A stretch of DNA of 14,389 bases. It comes from a virus (taxonomy: Duplodnaviria > Heunggongvirae > Uroviricota > Caudoviricetes). Made by a program: the position numbers and the translations under genes. The notes beneath the pieces are model-generated. The model was given only the letters and a program-made list of their open reading frames with translations. It made no database searches and was not told the origin of the DNA. How positions within the stretch are numbered: position 1 is the first letter of the stretch; the number at the start of each line of letters is the position of its first letter. Of the stretch, positions 1-5,345 are shown piece after piece. Location: the IMG/VR virus record IMGVR_UViG_3300015157_000027, positions 1-14,389 of that record. The stretch is one strand, 5' to 3'.

Positions 1-477
1 ATCCTTACCGAACTGGTACTCTCCACCTGGATAGTCGGCATGGGCTATAACGATAGTTTCATGCCCGGTGTTCAGCTCAATGATATAGGGCAGACGCTTT
101 ACCAGCTCCACCAGCGCCCTGGCTAATATTTCCTGATCAGTGTCCAGCATGAAGAACCATTGACCACCATTCATTAGCCAGTTATTCACATTGCCTGCGG
201 GACTTAACGCATCGATCATTAATCGCTCGTGGTTTCCCATAACCGACCGAAACCAGGGCATCTGCAATAGCTCCAGGCATTCAACATTTTCGGTGCCGCG
301 ATCGATAAGGTCGCCAACCGATATCAGTAAATCCTGTGTCGGGTCAAAATCCACACGATGGAGTTCATTCATAAGTAGGGTGCAGCAACCGTGCAAATCA
401 CCAACAACCCATATGTTTCTGTAGCCTGAACCATCAATACGGCTATATAAATTCACTTCATGCAGCGCCTGATTCAT
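1..477 (-). CDS. Serine/threonine protein phosphatase, lambda PPase (ORF221)-like metallophosphoesterase; 3' end runs off the window
   Basis: Reverse-strand translation from ATG at 477 reads [31 protein letters not shown]...[10 protein letters not shown]...MGNHE..., carrying the calcineurin-like motifs GDxHG, GDxxDRG and GNHE and matching by eye the N-terminus of lambda phosphatase. The frame stays open to position 1, so no stop lies in the window, which is why the ORF track omits it. Start overlaps the stop of the upstream gene (ATGA). Confidence 0.85.
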
Positions 478-1815: not shown

Positions 1816-2160
1816 TCAGAACTCTTCGATTTTCCATCCGCCACCTGCTTTCTTTGGCTTAACCGTTACCCCGATGATTCGGAACGGATACTGATCTGCG
1901 GCGACTTTGGTTTTCACCCTGGCGTCGTCGGTCCAGAAACCTTTCACTTCGTGCAGTTCCATCTCTCCGGTGGCGAGCATCACAGCGAAATCTGGCGTAT
2001 AGAACGTGTTATCAGCTAACCGCAGCTTGATACCCTCGAATCGATACCAGGCGATTTCCCCTGCACGTTTACGCTGCTCAAGATGCTGGCAATACGCAGA
2101 TTCTGTTTTGTTCATCTGGCCTGTTTTGAGTCGACCAAGAGCCTGCATCTGTTTTCTCAT
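1816..2160 (-). CDS. DUF1064-like small PD-(D/E)XK-fold protein (putative nuclease/resolvase-like), nin region
   Basis: 114 aa; YTPDFAV ... ELHEVKG arrangement is consistent with a D...E-x-K nuclease core. Its RBS (GAGGT) lies inside one of the 15-bp operator-like palindromes. Confidence 0.6.
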   Translation of the reverse strand: MRKQMQALGRLKTGQMNKTESAYCQHLEQRKRAGEIAWYRFEGIKLRLADNTFYTPDFAVMLATGEMELHEVKGFWTDDARVKTKVAADQYPFRIIGVTVKPKKAGGGWKIEEF

Positions 2161-2163
2161 GAT

Positions 2164-2240
2164 TTACCTCTGAGGTAATTAAAAACCACATAAGACACGA
2201 AATCAATAGAGTTTAGAATATTTTATTACCTGATGGGTAA
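2164..2240 (-). promoter_or_regulatory. Candidate repressor-controlled promoter in front of the DUF1064 gene: two palindromes (2164-2178 TTACC-TCTGA-GGTAA; 2226-2240 TTACC-TGATG-GGTAA) flanking sigma70-like -35/-10 elements
   Basis: Read on the minus strand: TTGATT (plus 2201-2206), 17-bp spacer, TTTAAT (plus 2178-2183). One palindrome sits about 20 bp upstream of the -35 and the other overlaps the -10/+1/RBS, the same layout as the pL-like promoter at 5268-5345. Confidence 0.5.
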
Positions 2241-2251
2241 TTATTTGAGCG

Positions 2252-2272
2252 TAAAAAAATGCGCTATCGCGC
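2252..2272 (-). terminator. Weak tR2-like intrinsic terminator or attenuator just downstream of the P-like gene
   Basis: On the minus strand: short GCGC/GCGC stem with GATA loop followed by A + T7 (plus-strand A7 run at 2253-2259). Stem is only 4 bp, so low confidence. Confidence 0.3.
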
Positions 2273-2277
2273 TGGTA

Positions 2278-3078
2278 TTACTTGATAAATCCTGCCGCCT
2301 TTCCTCGCCTGTATTCCTCCATCAGCCACTGCGCCGGTGTTATTCCCCCAAGGGTGGCGGCGTTAGGCATGCATCCGAAACTTCGCCCTGGTGGATGGTA
2401 AACGTCTCTCCCTGTGTCCGGAGGTGTACTCATGGGCTCTGGCTTTGCCTGTATGCTGATCACCGGATCGGGTATCTGCTGTCCAGAAGCCACCTTTTTC
2501 GCCCAATCATCGAGCAGCCTGCGCGCATGTTTCTCAACCTCAATCTCGCTAAGCTGGCGCTGATACATTGCACGGCGGGTATCACATACGACCCAGTACA
2601 TAACCGGATGTCGCCACGGGAATCTTTCGGGACTACCAGGATATAAACTTTTTTCCTTGCTGTACCGGTGAAACTCCGCCATCACATCGTCAATGGTGAC
2701 GCCAAGAACCATCTTGCTGTCTTTGCACCACTTGATGAATTGCCCTGGCGACGGCCAGAACGGAGATTCACTGGCGCGGGCGTGGCGCATACCAGCAGAA
2801 ACCTGTTCACGGGTTCGGATCCCACCTTCGGCAAACGCAGCAATCCACTGCTGTTTTGCAGCGACTTCCTGCTCTGGCGTCTTCAGGTTGGTTACCACTG
2901 CCGCCGGAAACAGTTGTTTCAGCTGTTTGAAAAGGGCATCAACAAGCCTCTCTGCTGACATGTTCACCACGTTGTCATTGTTGGTGTACTGATGCTCATA
3001 ACCTGACATGCGAGAAAGGGCTTCTCCGTCACGGTTTTGTATCGCGGTAAAAACGTTGTTCACAAGAAATCCTCCCAT
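2278..3078 (-). CDS. P: Replication protein P-like DnaB helicase loader
   Basis: 266 aa; segment ...LFPAAVVTNLKTPEQEVAAKQQWIAAFAEGGIRTREQVSAGMRHARASESPFWPSPGQFIKWC... aligns by eye with lambda P (...LATFPASL...RRQWVLAFRENGITTMEQVNAGMRVARRQNRPFLPSPGQFVAWC...). Start is ambiguous: ATG at 3078 or an internal Met about 23 codons in. Confidence 0.85.
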   Translation of the reverse strand: MGGFLVNNVFTAIQNRDGEALSRMSGYEHQYTNNDNVVNMSAERLVDALFKQLKQLFPAAVVTNLKTPEQEVAAKQQWIAAFAEGGIRTREQVSAGMRHARASESPFWPSPGQFIKWCKDSKMVLGVTIDDVMAEFHRYSKEKSLYPGSPERFPWRHPVMYWVVCDTRRAMYQRQLSEIEVEKHARRLLDDWAKKVASGQQIPDPVISIQAKPEPMSTPPDTGRDVYHPPGRSFGCMPNAATLGGITPAQWLMEEYRRGKAAGFIK

Positions 3079-3875
3079 GCTTCAGGGCTGTTCCAGTGCG
3101 GAACGTTGTTATCAGGTAATGTTGATTGCTTCTGTCTGCTAATCTGCAGCCGCCTTGCCAGCTTCTGCTCCCACTGTGCCTGATGGTATGCCTTACCCTC
3201 AGCCATCCAGTAAATTCTGAACTCTGCAAGTTCCTGTGCCGTTGGCAGACTGTCCAGGTAGATCCCCTGCAATGAGCTTTTCCGAAGAAAGTCATCTGAT
3301 GGCTGCCATTGTTCATGCATGACAAATTTGCCTAATTGCCCTGGCCCACCAGGAGGAACAAAGTTATTCATCACGGCGTTGTTTGCGCCGGGGTCATGAT
3401 GCACAGAATCCCCGTTTTTTGTCCTGCTCTCCCTCTCTTGGTTAAATGACTGGTTATATGACTGGTTCTGGATCCCGTTTTTGGGATCATTCAACATCCC
3501 GTTTTTGGGATCATTCAACATCCCGTTTTTGGGTATATTCCCGTTTTCGGTAACATTACCGTTTTCGGGTTCATTGCCCCCCTCTCGGTTGCCTTTAATG
3601 TTCCCGTTTTTGGTTATATTAAGAGAGAAAACCCGCACTCTTTTTGTCGCTCCCTTTCTCTCTCCGGTATCTGAAATAAGCCCCATTTTCATGAGCGATA
3701 TAAGCCCGGCCTGCACGGTTTTTTTATTCAGGCAAGTGTCTTTAACGAGGCGTTCTATGCTGGGGTAGCAGAGGTTATATTCATCGGCTCTGTCAGCCAT
3801 CGAGAGCAGTATGAGCTTTAATGATGAGCTACCTGGATCTGTCTCCCAGGCCCAATCTGTTGCATGTCTGCTCAT
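3060..3875 (-). CDS. Replication initiator, O-like (N-terminal wHTH-like domain, central iteron-encoded repeat linker, C-terminal domain)
   Basis: Sits immediately upstream of, and overlapping, the P-like gene; contains tandem DNA iterons in mid-gene that encode a repeated peptide (PKNGMLND x2 and degenerate NGN repeats), as lambda O contains ori. Protein similarity to lambda O itself is not obvious by eye. Confidence 0.65.
   Translation of the reverse strand: MSRHATDWAWETDPGSSSLKLILLSMADRADEYNLCYPSIERLVKDTCLNKKTVQAGLISLMKMGLISDTGERKGATKRVRVFSLNITKNGNIKGNREGGNEPENGNVTENGNIPKNGMLNDPKNGMLNDPKNGIQNQSYNQSFNQERESRTKNGDSVHHDPGANNAVMNNFVPPGGPGQLGKFVMHEQWQPSDDFLRKSSLQGIYLDSLPTAQELAEFRIYWMAEGKAYHQAQWEQKLARRLQISRQKQSTLPDNNVPHWNSPEAWEDFL
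3471..3620. repeat. Candidate origin iterons: two perfect 24-bp tandem units (ATCCCGTTTTTGGGATCATTCAAC at 3472-3495 and 3496-3519) plus about four degenerate copies of the CCCGTTTT(T/C)GG core
   Basis: Direct reading of the sequence. Core has inverted arms ATCCC...GGGAT. Location inside the initiator gene mirrors lambda ori. Confidence 0.65.
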
Positions 3876-4091: not shown

Positions 4092-4171
4092 GGTAAGCCC
4101 TGTTATTAGTATTGGGATTACGGTCATTTTGTGCTGACACAAAAAAAAGATCAACCAGATTTGGTTTTTTA

Positions 4172-4186
4172 TTACCTTTGAGGTAC
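4172..4186. promoter_or_regulatory. Operator-like palindrome TTACC-TTTGA-GGTAC (one half-site mismatch) between the cro terminator and the zinc-finger gene
   Basis: Matches the ATTACC-N5-GGTAAT family; on the minus strand it is followed after 16 bp by TTGATC, a 17-bp spacer and a weak -10 (CAAAAT). Confidence 0.4.
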
Positions 4187-4190
4187 GAAT

Positions 4191-4220
4191 AGATATGAAA
4201 AGACCGCCGGGTGGCGGTCT
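4191..4220 (-). terminator. tR1-like intrinsic terminator downstream of the cro-like gene
   Basis: Stem AGACCGCC / GGCGGTCT (4201-4208 / 4213-4220) with 4-nt loop; on the minus strand the hairpin is followed by UUUCAUAUCU. Confidence 0.55.
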
Positions 4221-4241: not shown

Positions 4242-4472
4242 TCATGAGTAGAAGAAGTATGCCAGTTCTGCTTTTGAGCGCAGCCATTGTCTTGATTTAC
4301 AGGCTTTAAAAAGCCCATTCATCAATACTTTACCTGGCATTTTGCGCTTACCTGTTAAGTGAGTCTGGATATAGTGACTCGTCGTTCCGGCTTCCTGTGC
4401 GAAGGCTTCACGCTCATCCGGAGTAAGTGCAAGCCAGTGCTTTTTGAAATCGAAATGTCCGTTATCGCTCAT
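4242..4472 (-). CDS. Cro-like small HTH regulator (76 aa), first gene of the minus-strand early operon
   Basis: Divergent from the repressor gene across an operator-containing intergenic region. Sequence FAQEAGTTSHYIQTHLTGKRKMPGKVL resembles the lambda Cro HTH region ([29 protein letters not shown]) in pattern. Confidence 0.65.
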   Translation of the reverse strand: MSDNGHFDFKKHWLALTPDEREAFAQEAGTTSHYIQTHLTGKRKMPGKVLMNGLFKACKSRQWLRSKAELAYFFYS

Positions 4473-4497: not shown

Positions 4498-4571
4498 ATA
4501 ATAAATATTCACCCATAAGGTAACAAAAATCAAGGATAGTTACCTATGAGGTGCATTTACCTGTTGGGTAA
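4498..4571. promoter_or_regulatory. OR-like switch region: three operator-like palindromes (4509-4523 TCACC-CATAA-GGTAA; 4539-4553 TTACC-TATGA-GGTGC; 4557-4571 TTACC-TGTTG-GGTAA) plus a PR-like promoter for cro
   Basis: Minus-strand promoter: -35 TTGTTA (plus 4521-4526), 17-bp spacer, -10 TATTAT (plus 4498-4503); the first palindrome overlaps the spacer/-35. A PRM-type promoter for the repressor is not clearly resolvable; the repressor ORF has almost no RBS, consistent with a short-leader transcript. Confidence 0.6.
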
Positions 4572-4626: not shown

Positions 4627-5211
4627 ATGAAAAGTATCCAGGACGTCCGCAGGCAAAATCTCAACGACTTGATCGACCGTGAATTCAATGGTGTTCAGAC
4701 GCGGATGGCAGAAAAACTTGGAACTCAGGCAAATCTGGTAAACCGCTGGGCTCTTGGCAAGAAGGTTATCGGCGACCAGGTTGCGCGAAAAATTGAAGCT
4801 GCCGCCAATAAACCCCGTAACTGGCTTGATATCGATCGCTCGCTTTCTCAGGAAGGTTTTCAGCCTGTCGGCCCGAGTGATATAGGTCAGCTGGCGGCTC
4901 ACAACCTGGAACGCTGGATGAGCGAAAGCCGCGACCTTTCAACGCAGGGAAAACTACACCGCGCATCCGGCGTCGCCCAGGTGACAATCAGCCGCCTGTT
5001 AAACAATGAGGTCAGCGTTTCCATTTCCACCCTGGAGAATGTTGCATCCGCATTCGGGCGTCACGGATATGAATTACTGATTCACCCGCACGACCCCGCG
5101 ACTATCAACTATGACCGCTCGCGCTACGCATTGTTACCTGAAACAGAGAAGGCAAAGATCGAAAGTTACATTGAATTTGTCATCAACCAGAACGAAAAAA
5201 ACAAACAATAA
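4627..5211 (+). CDS. CI-like prophage repressor composed of two HTH (XRE-type) domains, no recognisable S24/LexA-like autocleavage domain
   Basis: 194 aa; HTH-like segments GVQTRMAEKLGTQANLVNRWALGKK and KLHRASGVAQVTISRLLNNE; no Ala-Gly cleavage site or Ser/Lys dyad region seen. Divergent from cro-like gene and followed by a strong terminator. Confidence 0.75.
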   Translation: MKSIQDVRRQNLNDLIDREFNGVQTRMAEKLGTQANLVNRWALGKKVIGDQVARKIEAAANKPRNWLDIDRSLSQEGFQPVGPSDIGQLAAHNLERWMSESRDLSTQGKLHRASGVAQVTISRLLNNEVSVSISTLENVASAFGRHGYELLIHPHDPATINYDRSRYALLPETEKAKIESYIEFVINQNEKNKQ

Positions 5212-5231: not shown

Positions 5232-5258
5232 AAGCCGCCTTATGGCGGCTTTTTTATT
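5232..5258 (+). terminator. Rho-independent terminator after the repressor gene
   Basis: Stem AAGCCGCC / GGCGGCTT with TTAT loop followed by TTTTTATT on the plus strand. Confidence 0.8.
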
Positions 5259-5267
5259 GCCTATTCG

Positions 5268-5345
5268 ATTACCTAACGGGTAATTTTTTTAACTCATATC
5301 TATTGACATCAAACCAGATACGCATAATTATTACCTCAACGGTAA
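5268..5345 (+). promoter_or_regulatory. pL-like early-left promoter with two flanking operators (5269-5283 TTACC-TAACG-GGTAA; 5331-5345 TTACC-TCAAC-GGTAA)
   Basis: Consensus -35 TTGACA at 5303-5308; candidate -10 hexamers CATAAT/TAATTA at 5323-5330; one palindrome lies about 20 bp upstream of the -35 and the other immediately downstream of the -10. Confidence 0.65.

What the first reader, a model, noticed from the sequence alone, without database searches (positions are those of the whole stretch)
2164..2277. Third operator-flanked promoter inside the nin region, in front of the DUF1064 nuclease-fold gene
Two perfect copies of the operator palindrome (2164-2178, 2226-2240) bracket a good sigma70-like promoter on the minus strand (TTGATT, 17 bp, TTTAAT), copying the pL layout. 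The downstream palindrome overlaps the RBS of the DUF1064 gene, and a weak tR2-like terminator lies just upstream. Direct repressor control of a promoter inside the replication/nin region is not part of the classical lambda circuit; it would let the prophage silence or independently fire the nin genes and phosphatase.
Basis: partly seen in the sequence, partly recalled or inferred. Interest (0 to 1): 0.65.

Follow-up and report, generated by a model that had tools for sequence, protein, structure and literature searches.

The report
Repressor-guarded internal promoter of a prophage
The two palindromes are real repressor-binding sites that flank a probable weak promoter in an epsilon15/phiV10-type E. 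coli prophage; the cassette is conserved across the whole phage genus and already half-annotated in phage epsilon15, so it is a well-supported but largely ordinary regulatory element.

Summary
Window 2164-2178 and 2226-2240 both match the dyad TTACC-N5-GGTAA perfectly. They are not identical copies. The window has five perfect matches against 0.01 expected; the others lie at OR and pL. The layout matches pL to the base: operator, 19 nt, -35, 22 nt, operator, with starts 62 bp apart.

The window is not lambda. It is a Uetakevirus (phiV10/epsilon15-like) early region, and its repressor is a homologue of the tetrameric SPC32H Rep.

The cassette runs terminator, distal operator, A-tract, TTGATT, 17 nt, TTTAAT, then a proximal operator that doubles as the ribosome-binding site, then ATG. 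It recurs in:
- about 76 of 80 viral contigs with an identical repressor;
- 12 divergent relatives, with repressor identity down to 41%;
- 529 of 5,426 complete E. coli genomes.

The operator arms, the -35, the -10 core and the spacing are conserved. The operator centres and the promoter spacer vary.

The epsilon15 RefSeq record already marks the distal site as a repressor-binding site.

Promoter activity is inferred, not shown. The window's best -10 lacks the key A at position 2.

Best reading: each terminator-insulated early unit carries its own Rep-guarded promoter. Interest is modest.

The parts
2253..2272 (-). Weak intrinsic terminator after the P-like replication gene (stop codon 2280..2278). 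Stem GCGC (2272..2269) pairs with GCGC (2264..2261), loop GATA, then A and T7 (2259..2253).
   Evidence: Sequence and fold. Annotated as a terminator in phiV10. Stem and T-run are invariant and the loop varies in 12 divergent relatives.
2226..2240 (.). Distal operator TTACC-CATCA-GGTAA (minus-strand reading), a perfect match to the Rep dyad.
   Evidence: Arms are invariant in 76 homoimmune loci while the centre varies. The homologous site is annotated as a repressor binding site in epsilon15.
2218..2224 (-). Conserved A-tract AAAATAT directly after the distal operator, in the position of an UP element. It may also act as a bend. The pL cassette has a T7 tract at this position.
   Evidence: for conservation. 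The UP-element or bend role is inference.
2201..2206 (-). -35 hexamer TTGATT, within the conserved motif CTATTGA that the pL cassette shares.
   Evidence: TATTGA is invariant in 12 divergent relatives.
2178..2183 (-). -10 candidate TTTAAT, 17-nt spacer, 5 of 6 matches but T at position 2. The alternative register is TTAATT at 2182..2177. Nine of 12 relatives have TAAATT in that register.
   Evidence: The consensus scan did not call it.
2164..2178 (.). Proximal operator TTACCTCAGAGGTAA (minus-strand reading). It overlaps the -10 by 1 nt, covers the expected transcript start (about 2171-2169) and contains the Shine-Dalgarno GAGG (2170..2167).
   Evidence: Arms and the GAGG/GGGG/AAGG core are conserved.
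1816..2160 (-). First gene downstream of the cassette, a DUF1064 protein of 114 aa with ATG at 2160..2158.
   Evidence: Pfam PF06356, E = 3.4e-7. Annotated as DUF1064 in phiV10.
2278..3078 (-). Lambda-P-like replication gene that ends just before the cassette.
   Evidence: Pfam PF06992, E = 6e-57.
4627..5211 (+). Repressor gene (Rep, 194 aa), the presumed ligand of the operators.
   Evidence: phmmer hit to SPC32H Rep, PDB 5d50, E = 4e-42 over residues 1-190. HTH_3 domain.
4509..4571 (.). OR region between rep and the cro-like gene, with three sites at 4509-4523 (1 mismatch), 4540-4554 (2 mismatches) and 4557-4571 (perfect).
   Evidence: Present in 80 of 80 homoimmune loci.
5269..5345 (+). pL-like cassette, the template of the layout. 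Operator 5269-5283, -35 TTGACA 5303-5308, -10 AATTAT 5326-5331, operator 5331-5345. It is preceded by the rep terminator at 5232-5251.
   Evidence: Present in 79 of 80 homoimmune loci with the same 62-bp spacing.
4126..4186 (-). Sister element (P2) after the cro terminator. Single operator GTACCTCAAAGGTAA (4186..4172), then TTGATC (4154..4149), 17 nt, CAAAAT (4131..4126), ahead of the small orf, the DnaT-like gene and P.
   Evidence: Hexamers are conserved and the spacer varies in 6 relatives. The site is in 56 of 80 homoimmune loci.

Best explanation
The interval 2161-2277 is a self-contained regulatory cassette of an epsilon15/phiV10-type temperate podophage. A short terminator ends the replication operon. 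Behind it a sigma-70-type promoter (P3: A-tract, TTGATT, 17 nt, TTTAAT) restarts transcription into the DUF1064 gene and the ead/eae-like genes further downstream.

Two 15-bp operators (TTACC-N5-GGTAA) for the phage repressor Rep clamp this promoter. One lies 19 nt upstream of the -35. The other covers the -10 edge, the start site and the ribosome-binding site.

In a lysogen, Rep occupies both sites and shuts the promoter. Rep is a tetramer with two pairs of DNA-binding domains. The sites are 62 bp apart, about six helical turns, so they lie on the same face of the DNA. One tetramer probably bridges them and bends the AT-rich DNA between them. When the antirepressor inactivates Rep, P3 fires at the same time as pR and pL.

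This phage family has a conserved terminator at the end of each early unit, so each unit carries its own Rep-guarded promoter: pR, P2, P3 and pL, plus an operator pair in front of the terminase gene in relatives. This replaces lambda's two repressed promoters and antitermination cascade.

Shown: the sites, their geometry, their selective conservation, and the homology of the repressor.

Inferred: Rep binding at these particular sites, bridging by one tetramer, promoter activity, and the absence of an antitermination system.
For: 1. Site statistics: 5 perfect dyads against 0.01 expected, all in three intergenic control regions.
2. Geometry identical to pL: 19 nt, hexamer, 22 nt, with operator starts 62 bp apart.
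3. Among 83 sequences, pairs of sites 55-70 bp apart were 62 bp apart in 156 cases, 63 bp in 2 and 61 bp in 1.
4. In 76 homoimmune loci the arms, terminator, -35, -10 and RBS are invariant. The operator centres and the terminator-operator linker vary, with pi 0.45-0.6.
5. Twelve divergent relatives from at least 9 genera, with Rep 41-78% identical, keep the terminator stem, both pairs of arms, TATTGA and the AATT core of the -10. The 17-nt spacer and the operator centres differ. This is the pattern expected of a promoter with operators.
6. The cassette is kept although the downstream gene is DUF1064 in some relatives and a RuvC-like resolvase in others.
7. In Pseudescherichia vulneris the same slot holds a different operator/promoter design, TTGCAA-17-AATTAT with one operator in the spacer and one at the start. 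This argues that a Rep-controlled promoter is needed at this position.
8. Rep is homologous to SPC32H Rep. That protein binds DNA as a tetramer whose DNA-binding pairs come from different dimers (bioRxiv 10.1101/2021.09.07.459249). It carries a looping-type tetramerisation domain, with the two pairs of middle dimerisation domains about 100 A apart (PMC9986798).
9. The epsilon15 RefSeq record annotates the homologous distal site as a repressor binding site.
10. Sister elements, P2 after the cro terminator and an operator pair before the terminase small-subunit gene, show the same logic.
Against: - No transcript-start or binding data exist for this site in any paper I could reach. The key SPC32H and epsilon15 papers are not held in the library.
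- The window's best -10 (TTTAAT) has T at the near-invariant -11 A position, and the consensus scan did not call it.
- A start about 7 nt after the -10 would give a leader of only about 11 nt, with the Shine-Dalgarno at its extreme 5' end.
- The promoter spacer is invariant in the E. coli set and keeps a conserved TGG in all relatives. A plain sigma-70 spacer should not need this, so another factor may bind there.
- Bridging 62 bp (about 210 A of straight DNA) with a tetramer whose middle-domain pairs lie about 100 A apart needs strong bending, and this is untested.
- All relatives found share the same operator arms, so the decisive covariation test could not be run. That test asks whether a different repressor specificity comes with different sites here.
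Confidence: 0.62

Rival explanations
1. The sites are auxiliary operators without a meaningful promoter. Rep bound at the pair blocks RNA polymerase that leaks through the weak terminator, acting as a roadblock. It may also anchor long-range loops to OR (2.3 kb away) and OL, which would tighten repression there, as with lambda OL-OR looping or the flanking sites of phage 186. DUF1064 and the downstream genes would then be expressed by read-through from pR or P2 once Rep is removed.
For: - The window's -10 lacks the -11 A, and the scan did not call it.
- The upstream terminator is weak, with a 4-bp core, so read-through is plausible.
- Crystal contacts of SPC32H Rep suggest octamers, and its tetramerisation domain is of a looping type (PMC9986798).
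- The operator pair before the terminase gene in relatives has no convincing sigma-70 promoter by my inspection of the sequences.
Against: - TATTGA at the -35 and the AATT core of the -10 are invariant across 12 divergent relatives, while the spacer between them varies.
- The geometry equals that of pL, which the scan does call as a promoter (10 of 12).
- Nine of 12 relatives have TAAATT, with both key -10 positions.
- The P. vulneris replacement cassette again contains a promoter-like TTGCAA-17-AATTAT.
- A roadblock would need neither an A-tract nor a fixed 19-nt distance to a TTGA motif.
Confidence: 0.25
2. The promoter is real but depends on an activator or another factor, so it is a middle or delayed-early promoter. 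A phage protein, for example the PerC-like or AlpA-like regulator of the left operon or the Cro-like protein, would bind the conserved segment ATGTGG(T/A)TTT in the spacer. The Rep operators would add lysogenic silencing.
For: - The 'spacer' 2200..2184 is invariant in 76 loci, and G99 and G100 are invariant in all 12 relatives, which is unusual for a spacer.
- The -10 is sub-optimal.
- PerC-family and AlpA-family regulators are encoded in the left operon of phiV10, Tyrion and BUCT554.
Against: - No second repeated motif or dyad is evident in the spacer.
- Similar (C/T)GGAT sequences sit before the -10 of pL in several relatives, so shared ancestry of the two cassettes can explain the conservation.
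- No data link any of these regulators to this site.
Confidence: 0.1
3. The palindromes act at the RNA level. As hairpins in read-through mRNA they would mask the Shine-Dalgarno of the DUF1064 gene. Alternatively they are a functionless relic of a duplicated pL.
For: The proximal palindrome can form a small hairpin that includes the SD. The centroid structure pairs the arms.
Against: - The hairpin is weak, -2.6 to -4.6 kcal/mol with z = -1.1.
- The arms never covary. They stay identical to the OR and OL operator arms in every relative.
- The distal site lies upstream of any such mRNA function.
- No Rfam family matches above threshold.
- A relic would not stay invariant at 20 arm positions across genera while neighbouring positions are saturated with change.
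Confidence: 0.03

Closest known systems
Predicted repressor-binding sites of Salmonella phage epsilon15 (ATTACC-N5-GGTAAT), as annotated in RefSeq NC_004775.2
   Same: The dyad is the same. The genomic slot is the same, between the last replication gene and the first gene of the next block. The cassette sequence is the same: terminator, operator, AAAATAT, CTATTGA, -10, operator/RBS, ATG.
   Different: - In epsilon15 only the distal site is annotated. The RBS-overlapping site and the promoter between the sites are not.
- The flanking genes differ: a DnaT-like gene upstream and a RuvC-like resolvase downstream, instead of P and DUF1064.
- The annotation is a prediction, and I could not read the original paper.
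The pL-like operator/promoter cassette of the same phage (window 5269-5345) and its equivalents in the genus
   Same: Both have two operators with starts 62 bp apart and a -35 within CTATTGA 19 nt after the distal operator. In both, the -10 abuts the proximal operator and a terminator lies just upstream.
   Different: - pL has a consensus TTGACA and a -10 with A at position 2 (AATTAT).
- pL has a separate Shine-Dalgarno about 10 nt after the operator, which gives a leader of about 27 nt.
- In P3 the proximal operator itself is the Shine-Dalgarno, and the hexamers are weaker.
Rep/Ant lysis-lysogeny switch of Salmonella phage SPC32H (PDB 5d50, 5d4z)
   Same: The window's repressor aligns over its full length with SPC32H Rep (E = 4e-42). 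Rep acts as a tetramer on palindromic sites and is removed by an antirepressor rather than cleaved (as summarised in bioRxiv 10.1101/2021.09.07.459249, and PMC9986798).
   Different: - The window's repressor is 43% identical to the Rep of epsilon15, the other Salmonella phage of this genus compared here.
- Which operators SPC32H Rep was tested on could not be checked.
- No antirepressor gene was looked for in the window.
Lambda OL/OR operators with pL and pR
   Same: A prophage repressor binds dyad operators that overlap early promoters on both sides of the immunity region. The gene order cro, O-like, P, then nin-like genes is lambda-like.
   Different: - Lambda has three adjacent 17-bp sites per promoter, bound by dimers that cooperate pairwise (my own knowledge).
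- Lambda has only two repressed lytic promoters and uses N antitermination to pass tR1 and tR2 (my own knowledge).
- Here two sites bracket the promoter at 62 bp, the repressor family is different, and there are extra repressed promoters behind the terminators.
Distal repressor targets in other temperate phages: the phage 186 CI site at pB and flanking sites FL/FR, the TP901-1 OD site, and the mycobacteriophage L5 'stoperators' (my own knowledge, not checked here)
   Same: In each case the prophage repressor acts directly at sites far from the main switch. It either represses a second promoter (186 pB), assists looping (186 FL/FR, TP901-1 OD), or blocks elongation (L5).
   Different: - The repressor families and site architectures are unrelated.
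- L5 stoperators are numerous, asymmetric and orientation-dependent.
- Here the sites are few, symmetric and flank promoters.

Membership tests
Uetakevirus (epsilon15-type) Rep operator | 15-17 bp dyad (A)TTACC-N5-GGTAA(T) | tested here: met
   Both sites match with 0 mismatches. There are 5 perfect matches in the window against 0.01 expected. The same dyad is annotated as a repressor site in epsilon15.
Uetakevirus (epsilon15-type) Rep operator | A cognate repressor of the SPC32H/epsilon15 Rep family is encoded in the same element | tested here: met
   Window 4627-5211 against PDB 5d50 gives E = 4e-42. It is 43% identical to epsilon15 Rep.
Uetakevirus (epsilon15-type) Rep operator | Selective maintenance of the contacted arms while non-contacted positions drift | tested here: met
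   Arms are invariant in 76 homoimmune loci and 12 divergent relatives. Operator centres have pi 0.45-0.6 with 3-4 alleles.
Uetakevirus (epsilon15-type) Rep operator | Physical binding of Rep (EMSA, footprint or ChIP) | not testable with these tools
   No binding data for this site were found.
Sigma-70 promoter | -35 and -10 hexamers at 16-18 bp spacing, with A at position 2 and T at position 6 of the -10 | tested here: inconclusive
   TTGATT-17-TTTAAT scores 9 of 12, but position 2 of the -10 is T, and the scan did not call it. Nine of 12 relatives have TAAATT at 18 bp, which has both key bases.
Sigma-70 promoter | Conservation of the hexamers with a variable spacer among relatives | tested here: met
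   TATTGA and the AATT core are invariant, and the spacer differs among genera. Within the E. coli set the spacer is invariant.
Sigma-70 promoter | A mapped transcript start | not testable with these tools
   No transcript-start or RNA-seq data are available in the tools. The literature searches found none.
Intrinsic (rho-independent) terminator | A G+C-rich hairpin followed at once by a T-run | tested here: met
   GCGC-GATA-GCGC, then A, then T7. The stem has only 4 bp, and the wider fold gives -8.4 kcal/mol. The stem and T7 are invariant and the loop varies in relatives. It is annotated as a terminator in phiV10. The consensus scan requires at least 5 pairs and did not list it.
Lambda-type tripartite operator (OL/OR) | Three adjacent dyad sites that overlap one promoter, bound cooperatively by repressor dimers | tested here: not met
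   There are only two sites, 62 bp apart, on either side of the promoter. The repressor belongs to the Rep (SPC32H) family, not to lambda CI.
L5-type stoperators (elongation roadblocks) | Many asymmetric sites spread through transcribed regions in one orientation | tested here: not met
   The sites are symmetric and few. In the window, about 8 recur in relatives and all are intergenic at the heads of units.

The most novel reading that the evidence does not exclude
Epsilon15-type phages may run their lysogenic silencing on a distributed design in place of lambda's two promoters and antitermination cascade. Every early unit, and perhaps the late unit, would be insulated by a terminator and restarted by its own promoter. 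Each promoter would be clamped by a single Rep tetramer that bridges two in-phase operators, at 31 or 62 bp, in a micro-loop.

The roughly 110-bp terminator-operator-promoter-operator-ATG cassette would also serve as a portable joint where gene modules are exchanged, for example DUF1064 against RuvC.

The non-contacted operator centres would be under diversifying selection that tunes repression strength among otherwise homoimmune prophages.
Probability: 0.3. Interest if true: 0.55.

Novelty: new member of a known kind. Interest (0 to 1): 0.33.

Why it matters
If confirmed, this cassette shows how a very common E. coli prophage type keeps genes downstream of its replication module silent. The cassette with its flanks is in about one in ten complete E. 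coli genomes.

The mechanism would be a separate repressor-clamped promoter behind each terminator, not antitermination from pR. The fixed 62-bp operator pairs give a concrete, testable DNA target geometry for the unusual tetrameric Rep/antirepressor switch. The structure of that switch is known, but a 2023 structural paper (PMC9986798) says its structural mechanism of gene repression has not been extensively characterized.

In practice, the cassette is a compact, tightly regulated promoter module. It also marks the boundaries of transcription units for annotating these prophages.

Tried and rejected
1. Chance occurrence: rejected. There are 5 perfect dyads against 0.01 expected.

2. A conserved antisense promoter on the plus strand. 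AAGACA-16-TAGAAT at 2192-2219 was the only hit the scan gave in the interval. Rejected, because the TAGAAT segment falls in a block that differs among relatives, ATTCTA against ATGCGC.

3. A known RNA family. The only hit was a sub-threshold snoRNA match, E = 0.19 and 22.7 bits against a gathering score of 39. Rejected.

4. SD-masking hairpin. The fold is weak and not significant.

5. Covariation test with heteroimmune relatives. I looked for Rep homologues with a different operator specificity in viral contigs and in species-representative genomes.
   - All 80 viral loci had 100% identical Rep.
   - All enterobacterial relatives, down to 41% Rep identity, keep the same TTACC/GGTAA arms.
   - The more distant hits (Paraburkholderia, Hydrogenovibrio, Thiomicrospira) match only the first 70 residues and show no such sites.
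   - The test could therefore not be made.

6. Primary literature. Kim & Ryu 2013 (PMC3807360), Kim et al. 2016 (PNAS) and Kropinski et al. 2007 (PMC2698709) are not held. The vB_EcoP_ZX5 paper (PMC9782041) predicts four promoters, but the passages I retrieved give no positions or operators.

7. Rapid hypermutation of the operator centres. Partly examined. Loci with identical flanks almost always have identical cassettes. The variation is therefore an evolutionary-scale excess, not phase-variation-like instability.

Full report
**1. What the window is**

The window matches the early, integration and lysis region of phiV10-type podophages (genus Uetakevirus) at about 96% identity. It matches epsilon15 and Enterobacter phage Tyrion at about 80%.

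Using the phiV10 annotation, Pfam and the ORF list, the rightward early genes lie on the minus strand in this order:
- cro-like gene, 4472..4242;
- a terminator, 4220..4201;
- a small orf;
- a DnaT/O-like initiator, 3875..3060;
- a lambda-P-like protein, 3078..2278;
- the intergenic interval of the finding, 2277..2161;
- a DUF1064 gene, 2160..1816;
- ead/eae-like genes.

The repressor gene (4627-5211, plus strand) is followed by a terminator (5232-5251) and a pL-like promoter. The repressor aligns end to end with Rep of Salmonella phage SPC32H (PDB 5d50, E = 4e-42). It is not a lambda CI-type protein.

According to papers that summarise the SPC32H work, Rep binds DNA as a tetramer. Its DNA-binding pairs come from different dimers, and an antirepressor inactivates it (bioRxiv 10.1101/2021.09.07.459249). 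It carries a p53-like 'looping' tetramerisation domain, with the two pairs of middle dimerisation domains about 100 A apart (PMC9986798).

**2. Check of the observation**

- Site 2164-2178 reads TTACCTCTGAGGTAA and site 2226-2240 reads TTACCTGATGGGTAA.
- They are not identical, and only the first is a 6+6 palindrome. Both match TTACC-N5-GGTAA perfectly.
- The window holds five perfect matches against 0.01 expected.
- The other three are at the rep/cro intergenic region (4557) and on either side of the pL-like promoter (5269, 5331).
- Weaker copies complete a three-site OR, at 4509 and 4540.

On the minus strand the interval reads as follows:
- stop codon of P;
- GCGC-GATA-GCGC, A, T7 (2272..2253);
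- an 11-nt linker plus the flanking A of ATTACC (2252..2241);
- distal operator (2240..2226);
- 19 nt that begin T-AAAATAT (the first T completes GGTAAT);
- TTGATT (2206..2201);
- 17 nt;
- TTTAAT (2183..2178);
- proximal operator (2178..2164), which contains GAGG;
- ATC, then ATG (2160).

The pL cassette has exactly the same spacing: operator, 19 nt, TTGACA, 22 nt, operator, with starts 62 bp apart.

The weak point is the -10. TTTAAT has T at position 2, where sigma-70 promoters almost always have A (established knowledge). The consensus scan therefore did not list it, though it listed pL at 10 of 12.

**3. Comparative evidence**

*Homoimmune set.* A scan of IMG/VR for the repressor returned 80 loci with 100% identical Rep.
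- About 76 of them carry the cassette.
- Among all site pairs 55-70 bp apart in 83 sequences, 156 are exactly 62 bp apart, 2 are 63 bp and 1 is 61 bp.
- There are about 60 distinct cassette sequences, but the differences are highly localised.
- Invariant in 76 aligned loci: the terminator, both pairs of arms, the -35, the whole spacer, the -10 and the RBS.
- Variable: the centre of the distal operator (4 of 5 positions with pi 0.46-0.60 and 3-4 alleles each), two positions of the proximal centre, and the linker after the T-run.

*Divergent set.* I compared phiV10, epsilon15, Tyrion and BUCT554. I also compared prophages found with a Rep alignment in Superficieibacter, Erwinia dacicola, Pseudocitrobacter, Klebsiella pneumoniae ATCC 13883, Citrobacter werkmanii, C. 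braakii and Scandinavium. Rep identity ranges from 41 to 78%.
- All keep the same arms and the same cassette.
- The alignment (A2) shows these columns invariant: the terminator stem and T7, TTACC/GGTAA twice, TATTGA, and T-x-AATT before the proximal operator.
- The terminator loop, the linker, the operator centres and most of the promoter spacer differ.
- Nine of the 12 have TAAATT at an 18-nt spacing, a -10 with both key bases. The window, phiV10 and Tyrion have TTTTAATT instead.

*Mosaic context.* The gene after the ATG is DUF1064 in some relatives (window, phiV10, BUCT554 and others). It is a RuvC-like resolvase in others (epsilon15, Tyrion and others). The gene before the terminator also differs. 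The roughly 110-bp cassette is thus conserved as a unit across a mosaic joint.

*A natural variant.* In Pseudescherichia vulneris the same slot holds a different design: terminator, TTGCAA, an operator inside the 17-nt spacer, AATTAT, a second operator, then ATG. This is again a promoter-like element under two operators.

*Prevalence.* The 241-bp segment around the cassette occurs in 529 of 5,426 complete E. coli genomes.

**4. It is part of a wider pattern**

- After the cro terminator there is a single operator (4186..4172, one mismatch). It is followed by TTGATC-17-CAAAAT.
- Both hexamers are conserved and the spacer varies in six relatives. The site is present in 56 of 80 homoimmune loci.
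- In relatives whose loci reach far enough, a further terminator is followed by two adjacent operators, 18 bp apart. They sit directly before the terminase small-subunit gene (Pfam Terminase_2, E = 8e-28).
- Epsilon15 also has an annotated repressor site upstream of gp19.
- Operators therefore stand at the head of several terminator-bounded units. The finding is one instance of the family's normal architecture.

**5. Mechanism**

*Shown:* the sites, their geometry, the purifying selection on the arms and on the promoter-like hexamers, and the repressor homology.

*Inferred:*
- Rep occupies both operators in the lysogen.
- The proximal one covers the -10 edge, the start site and the RBS. The distal one lies where an UP element or alpha-CTD contact would be.
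- A spacing of 62 bp is about 5.9 helical turns, so the sites face the same side. A Rep tetramer has two DNA-binding pairs, so one tetramer could hold both sites and bend the A/T-rich DNA between them.
- Removal of Rep by the antirepressor would fire P3 together with pR and pL.
- A start about 7 nt after the -10 would give an unusually short leader of about 11 nt that begins at the Shine-Dalgarno.

I rate functional Rep operators at about 0.9 and an active Rep-repressed promoter at about 0.6.

The main rival, at about 0.25, is that the pair acts as a roadblock or looping anchor and that the genes are read through from upstream. A third option, at about 0.1, is an activator-dependent promoter. 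It is prompted by the conserved TGTGG(T/A)TT in the spacer. RNA-level or relic explanations are very unlikely.

**6. Comparison with what is known, and novelty**

- The closest known item is the homologous site in epsilon15. The RefSeq record already labels it 'protein_bind: repressor, lysogeny' (L002 3045-3061).
- The epsilon15 sequence also contains the unannotated second site, TTACCTGAGAGGTAA, over the RBS.
- Direct repressor action at distal promoters is known in other phages, for example 186 pB (my own knowledge).
- I found no experimental mapping of operators or promoters for this genus in the accessible literature. [quoted passage not shown]

The finding is therefore a new member, and a somewhat better-defined description, of a known and already predicted kind of element. 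Interest is 0.33.

**7. Limits**

- All relatives share one operator specificity, so I could not test whether the sites change with the repressor.
- The key primary papers were not readable.
- Promoter activity, Rep binding and bridging remain untested.

Noticed in passing
window 2231-2235, 2241-2251, 2169, 2172; pL 5263-5268 and 5275-5278; OR site 4540-4554, centre: Among 76-80 prophages with an identical repressor, variation is concentrated in the non-contacted operator centres and in the linker between the terminator T-run and the distal operator. There pi is 0.45-0.60, often with 3-4 alleles. At 4-fold degenerate sites of the flanking genes pi is 0.054 (P) and 0.086 (DUF1064). Diversity inside cro is almost nil. 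Loci with identical flanks mostly have identical cassettes, so this is not rapid switching. It could be diversifying selection on operator affinity, or deep coalescence at a recombination joint.
   Followed up: partly
window 4126-4186 (minus strand): A second internal cassette lies after the cro terminator. It has a single operator GTACCTCAAAGGTAA, then TTGATC-17-CAAAAT, ahead of the small orf, the DnaT-like gene and P. The hexamers are conserved and the spacer varies in six relatives. The operator is present in 56 of 80 homoimmune loci. It is absent from the epsilon15 lineage.
   Followed up: partly
L087 689-721, L088 1525-1557, L089 2180-2212, L090 1191-1223, L091 139-172, L092 2324-2356; also L081, L022, L058 (outside the window): Two adjacent operators, 18 bp apart and preceded by a terminator, sit directly in front of the terminase small-subunit gene (Pfam Terminase_2, E = 8e-28). 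This suggests that the repressor also guards the entrance to the late operon. I saw no convincing sigma-70 promoter there.
   Followed up: partly
L088 5343-5375 (Pseudescherichia vulneris prophage): The slot of the finding holds a different design: terminator, TTGCAA, an operator within the 17-nt spacer, AATTAT, a second operator, then ATG of a RuvC-like gene. The operators are 18 bp apart instead of 62.
   Followed up: no
window 2161-2272 and homologues in L001, L002, L083-L092: The roughly 110-bp cassette is conserved as a unit while the genes on both sides are swapped. Downstream is DUF1064 or a RuvC-like resolvase. Upstream is the P-like gene in the window, but the last replication gene differs in epsilon15. 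Similarity breaks exactly at the terminator and at the ATG, as expected of a module-exchange joint.
   Followed up: partly
window 3439-3575 (inside the DnaT/O-like gene 3060-3875): There are three adjoining tandem-repeat arrays: period 12 with 2.4 copies, period 24 with 2.6 copies at 100% identity, and period 18 with 3.1 copies. The repeat units contain small hairpins that the terminator scan picked up. They look like origin iterons inside the initiator gene, as in lambda.
   Followed up: no
window 10585-10599: A one-mismatch operator-like dyad, ATACCTTTAAGGTAA, lies about 40 bp upstream of the integrase start (int 9292-10542, minus strand). An ATACC...GGTAA site recurs at the equivalent place in phiV10, epsilon15, Tyrion, BUCT554 and most of the enterobacterial prophages compared. 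It could be a Rep site that controls int, or part of attP.
   Followed up: no
window 5-19 and 12511-12525: These one-mismatch matches to the dyad (TTACCGAACTGGTAC and CTACCGCAGAGGTAA) are probably chance. The site at 5-19 does not recur in the 80 homoimmune loci, and the site at 12511-12525 lies inside an ORF beyond the stretch those loci cover.
   Followed up: partly
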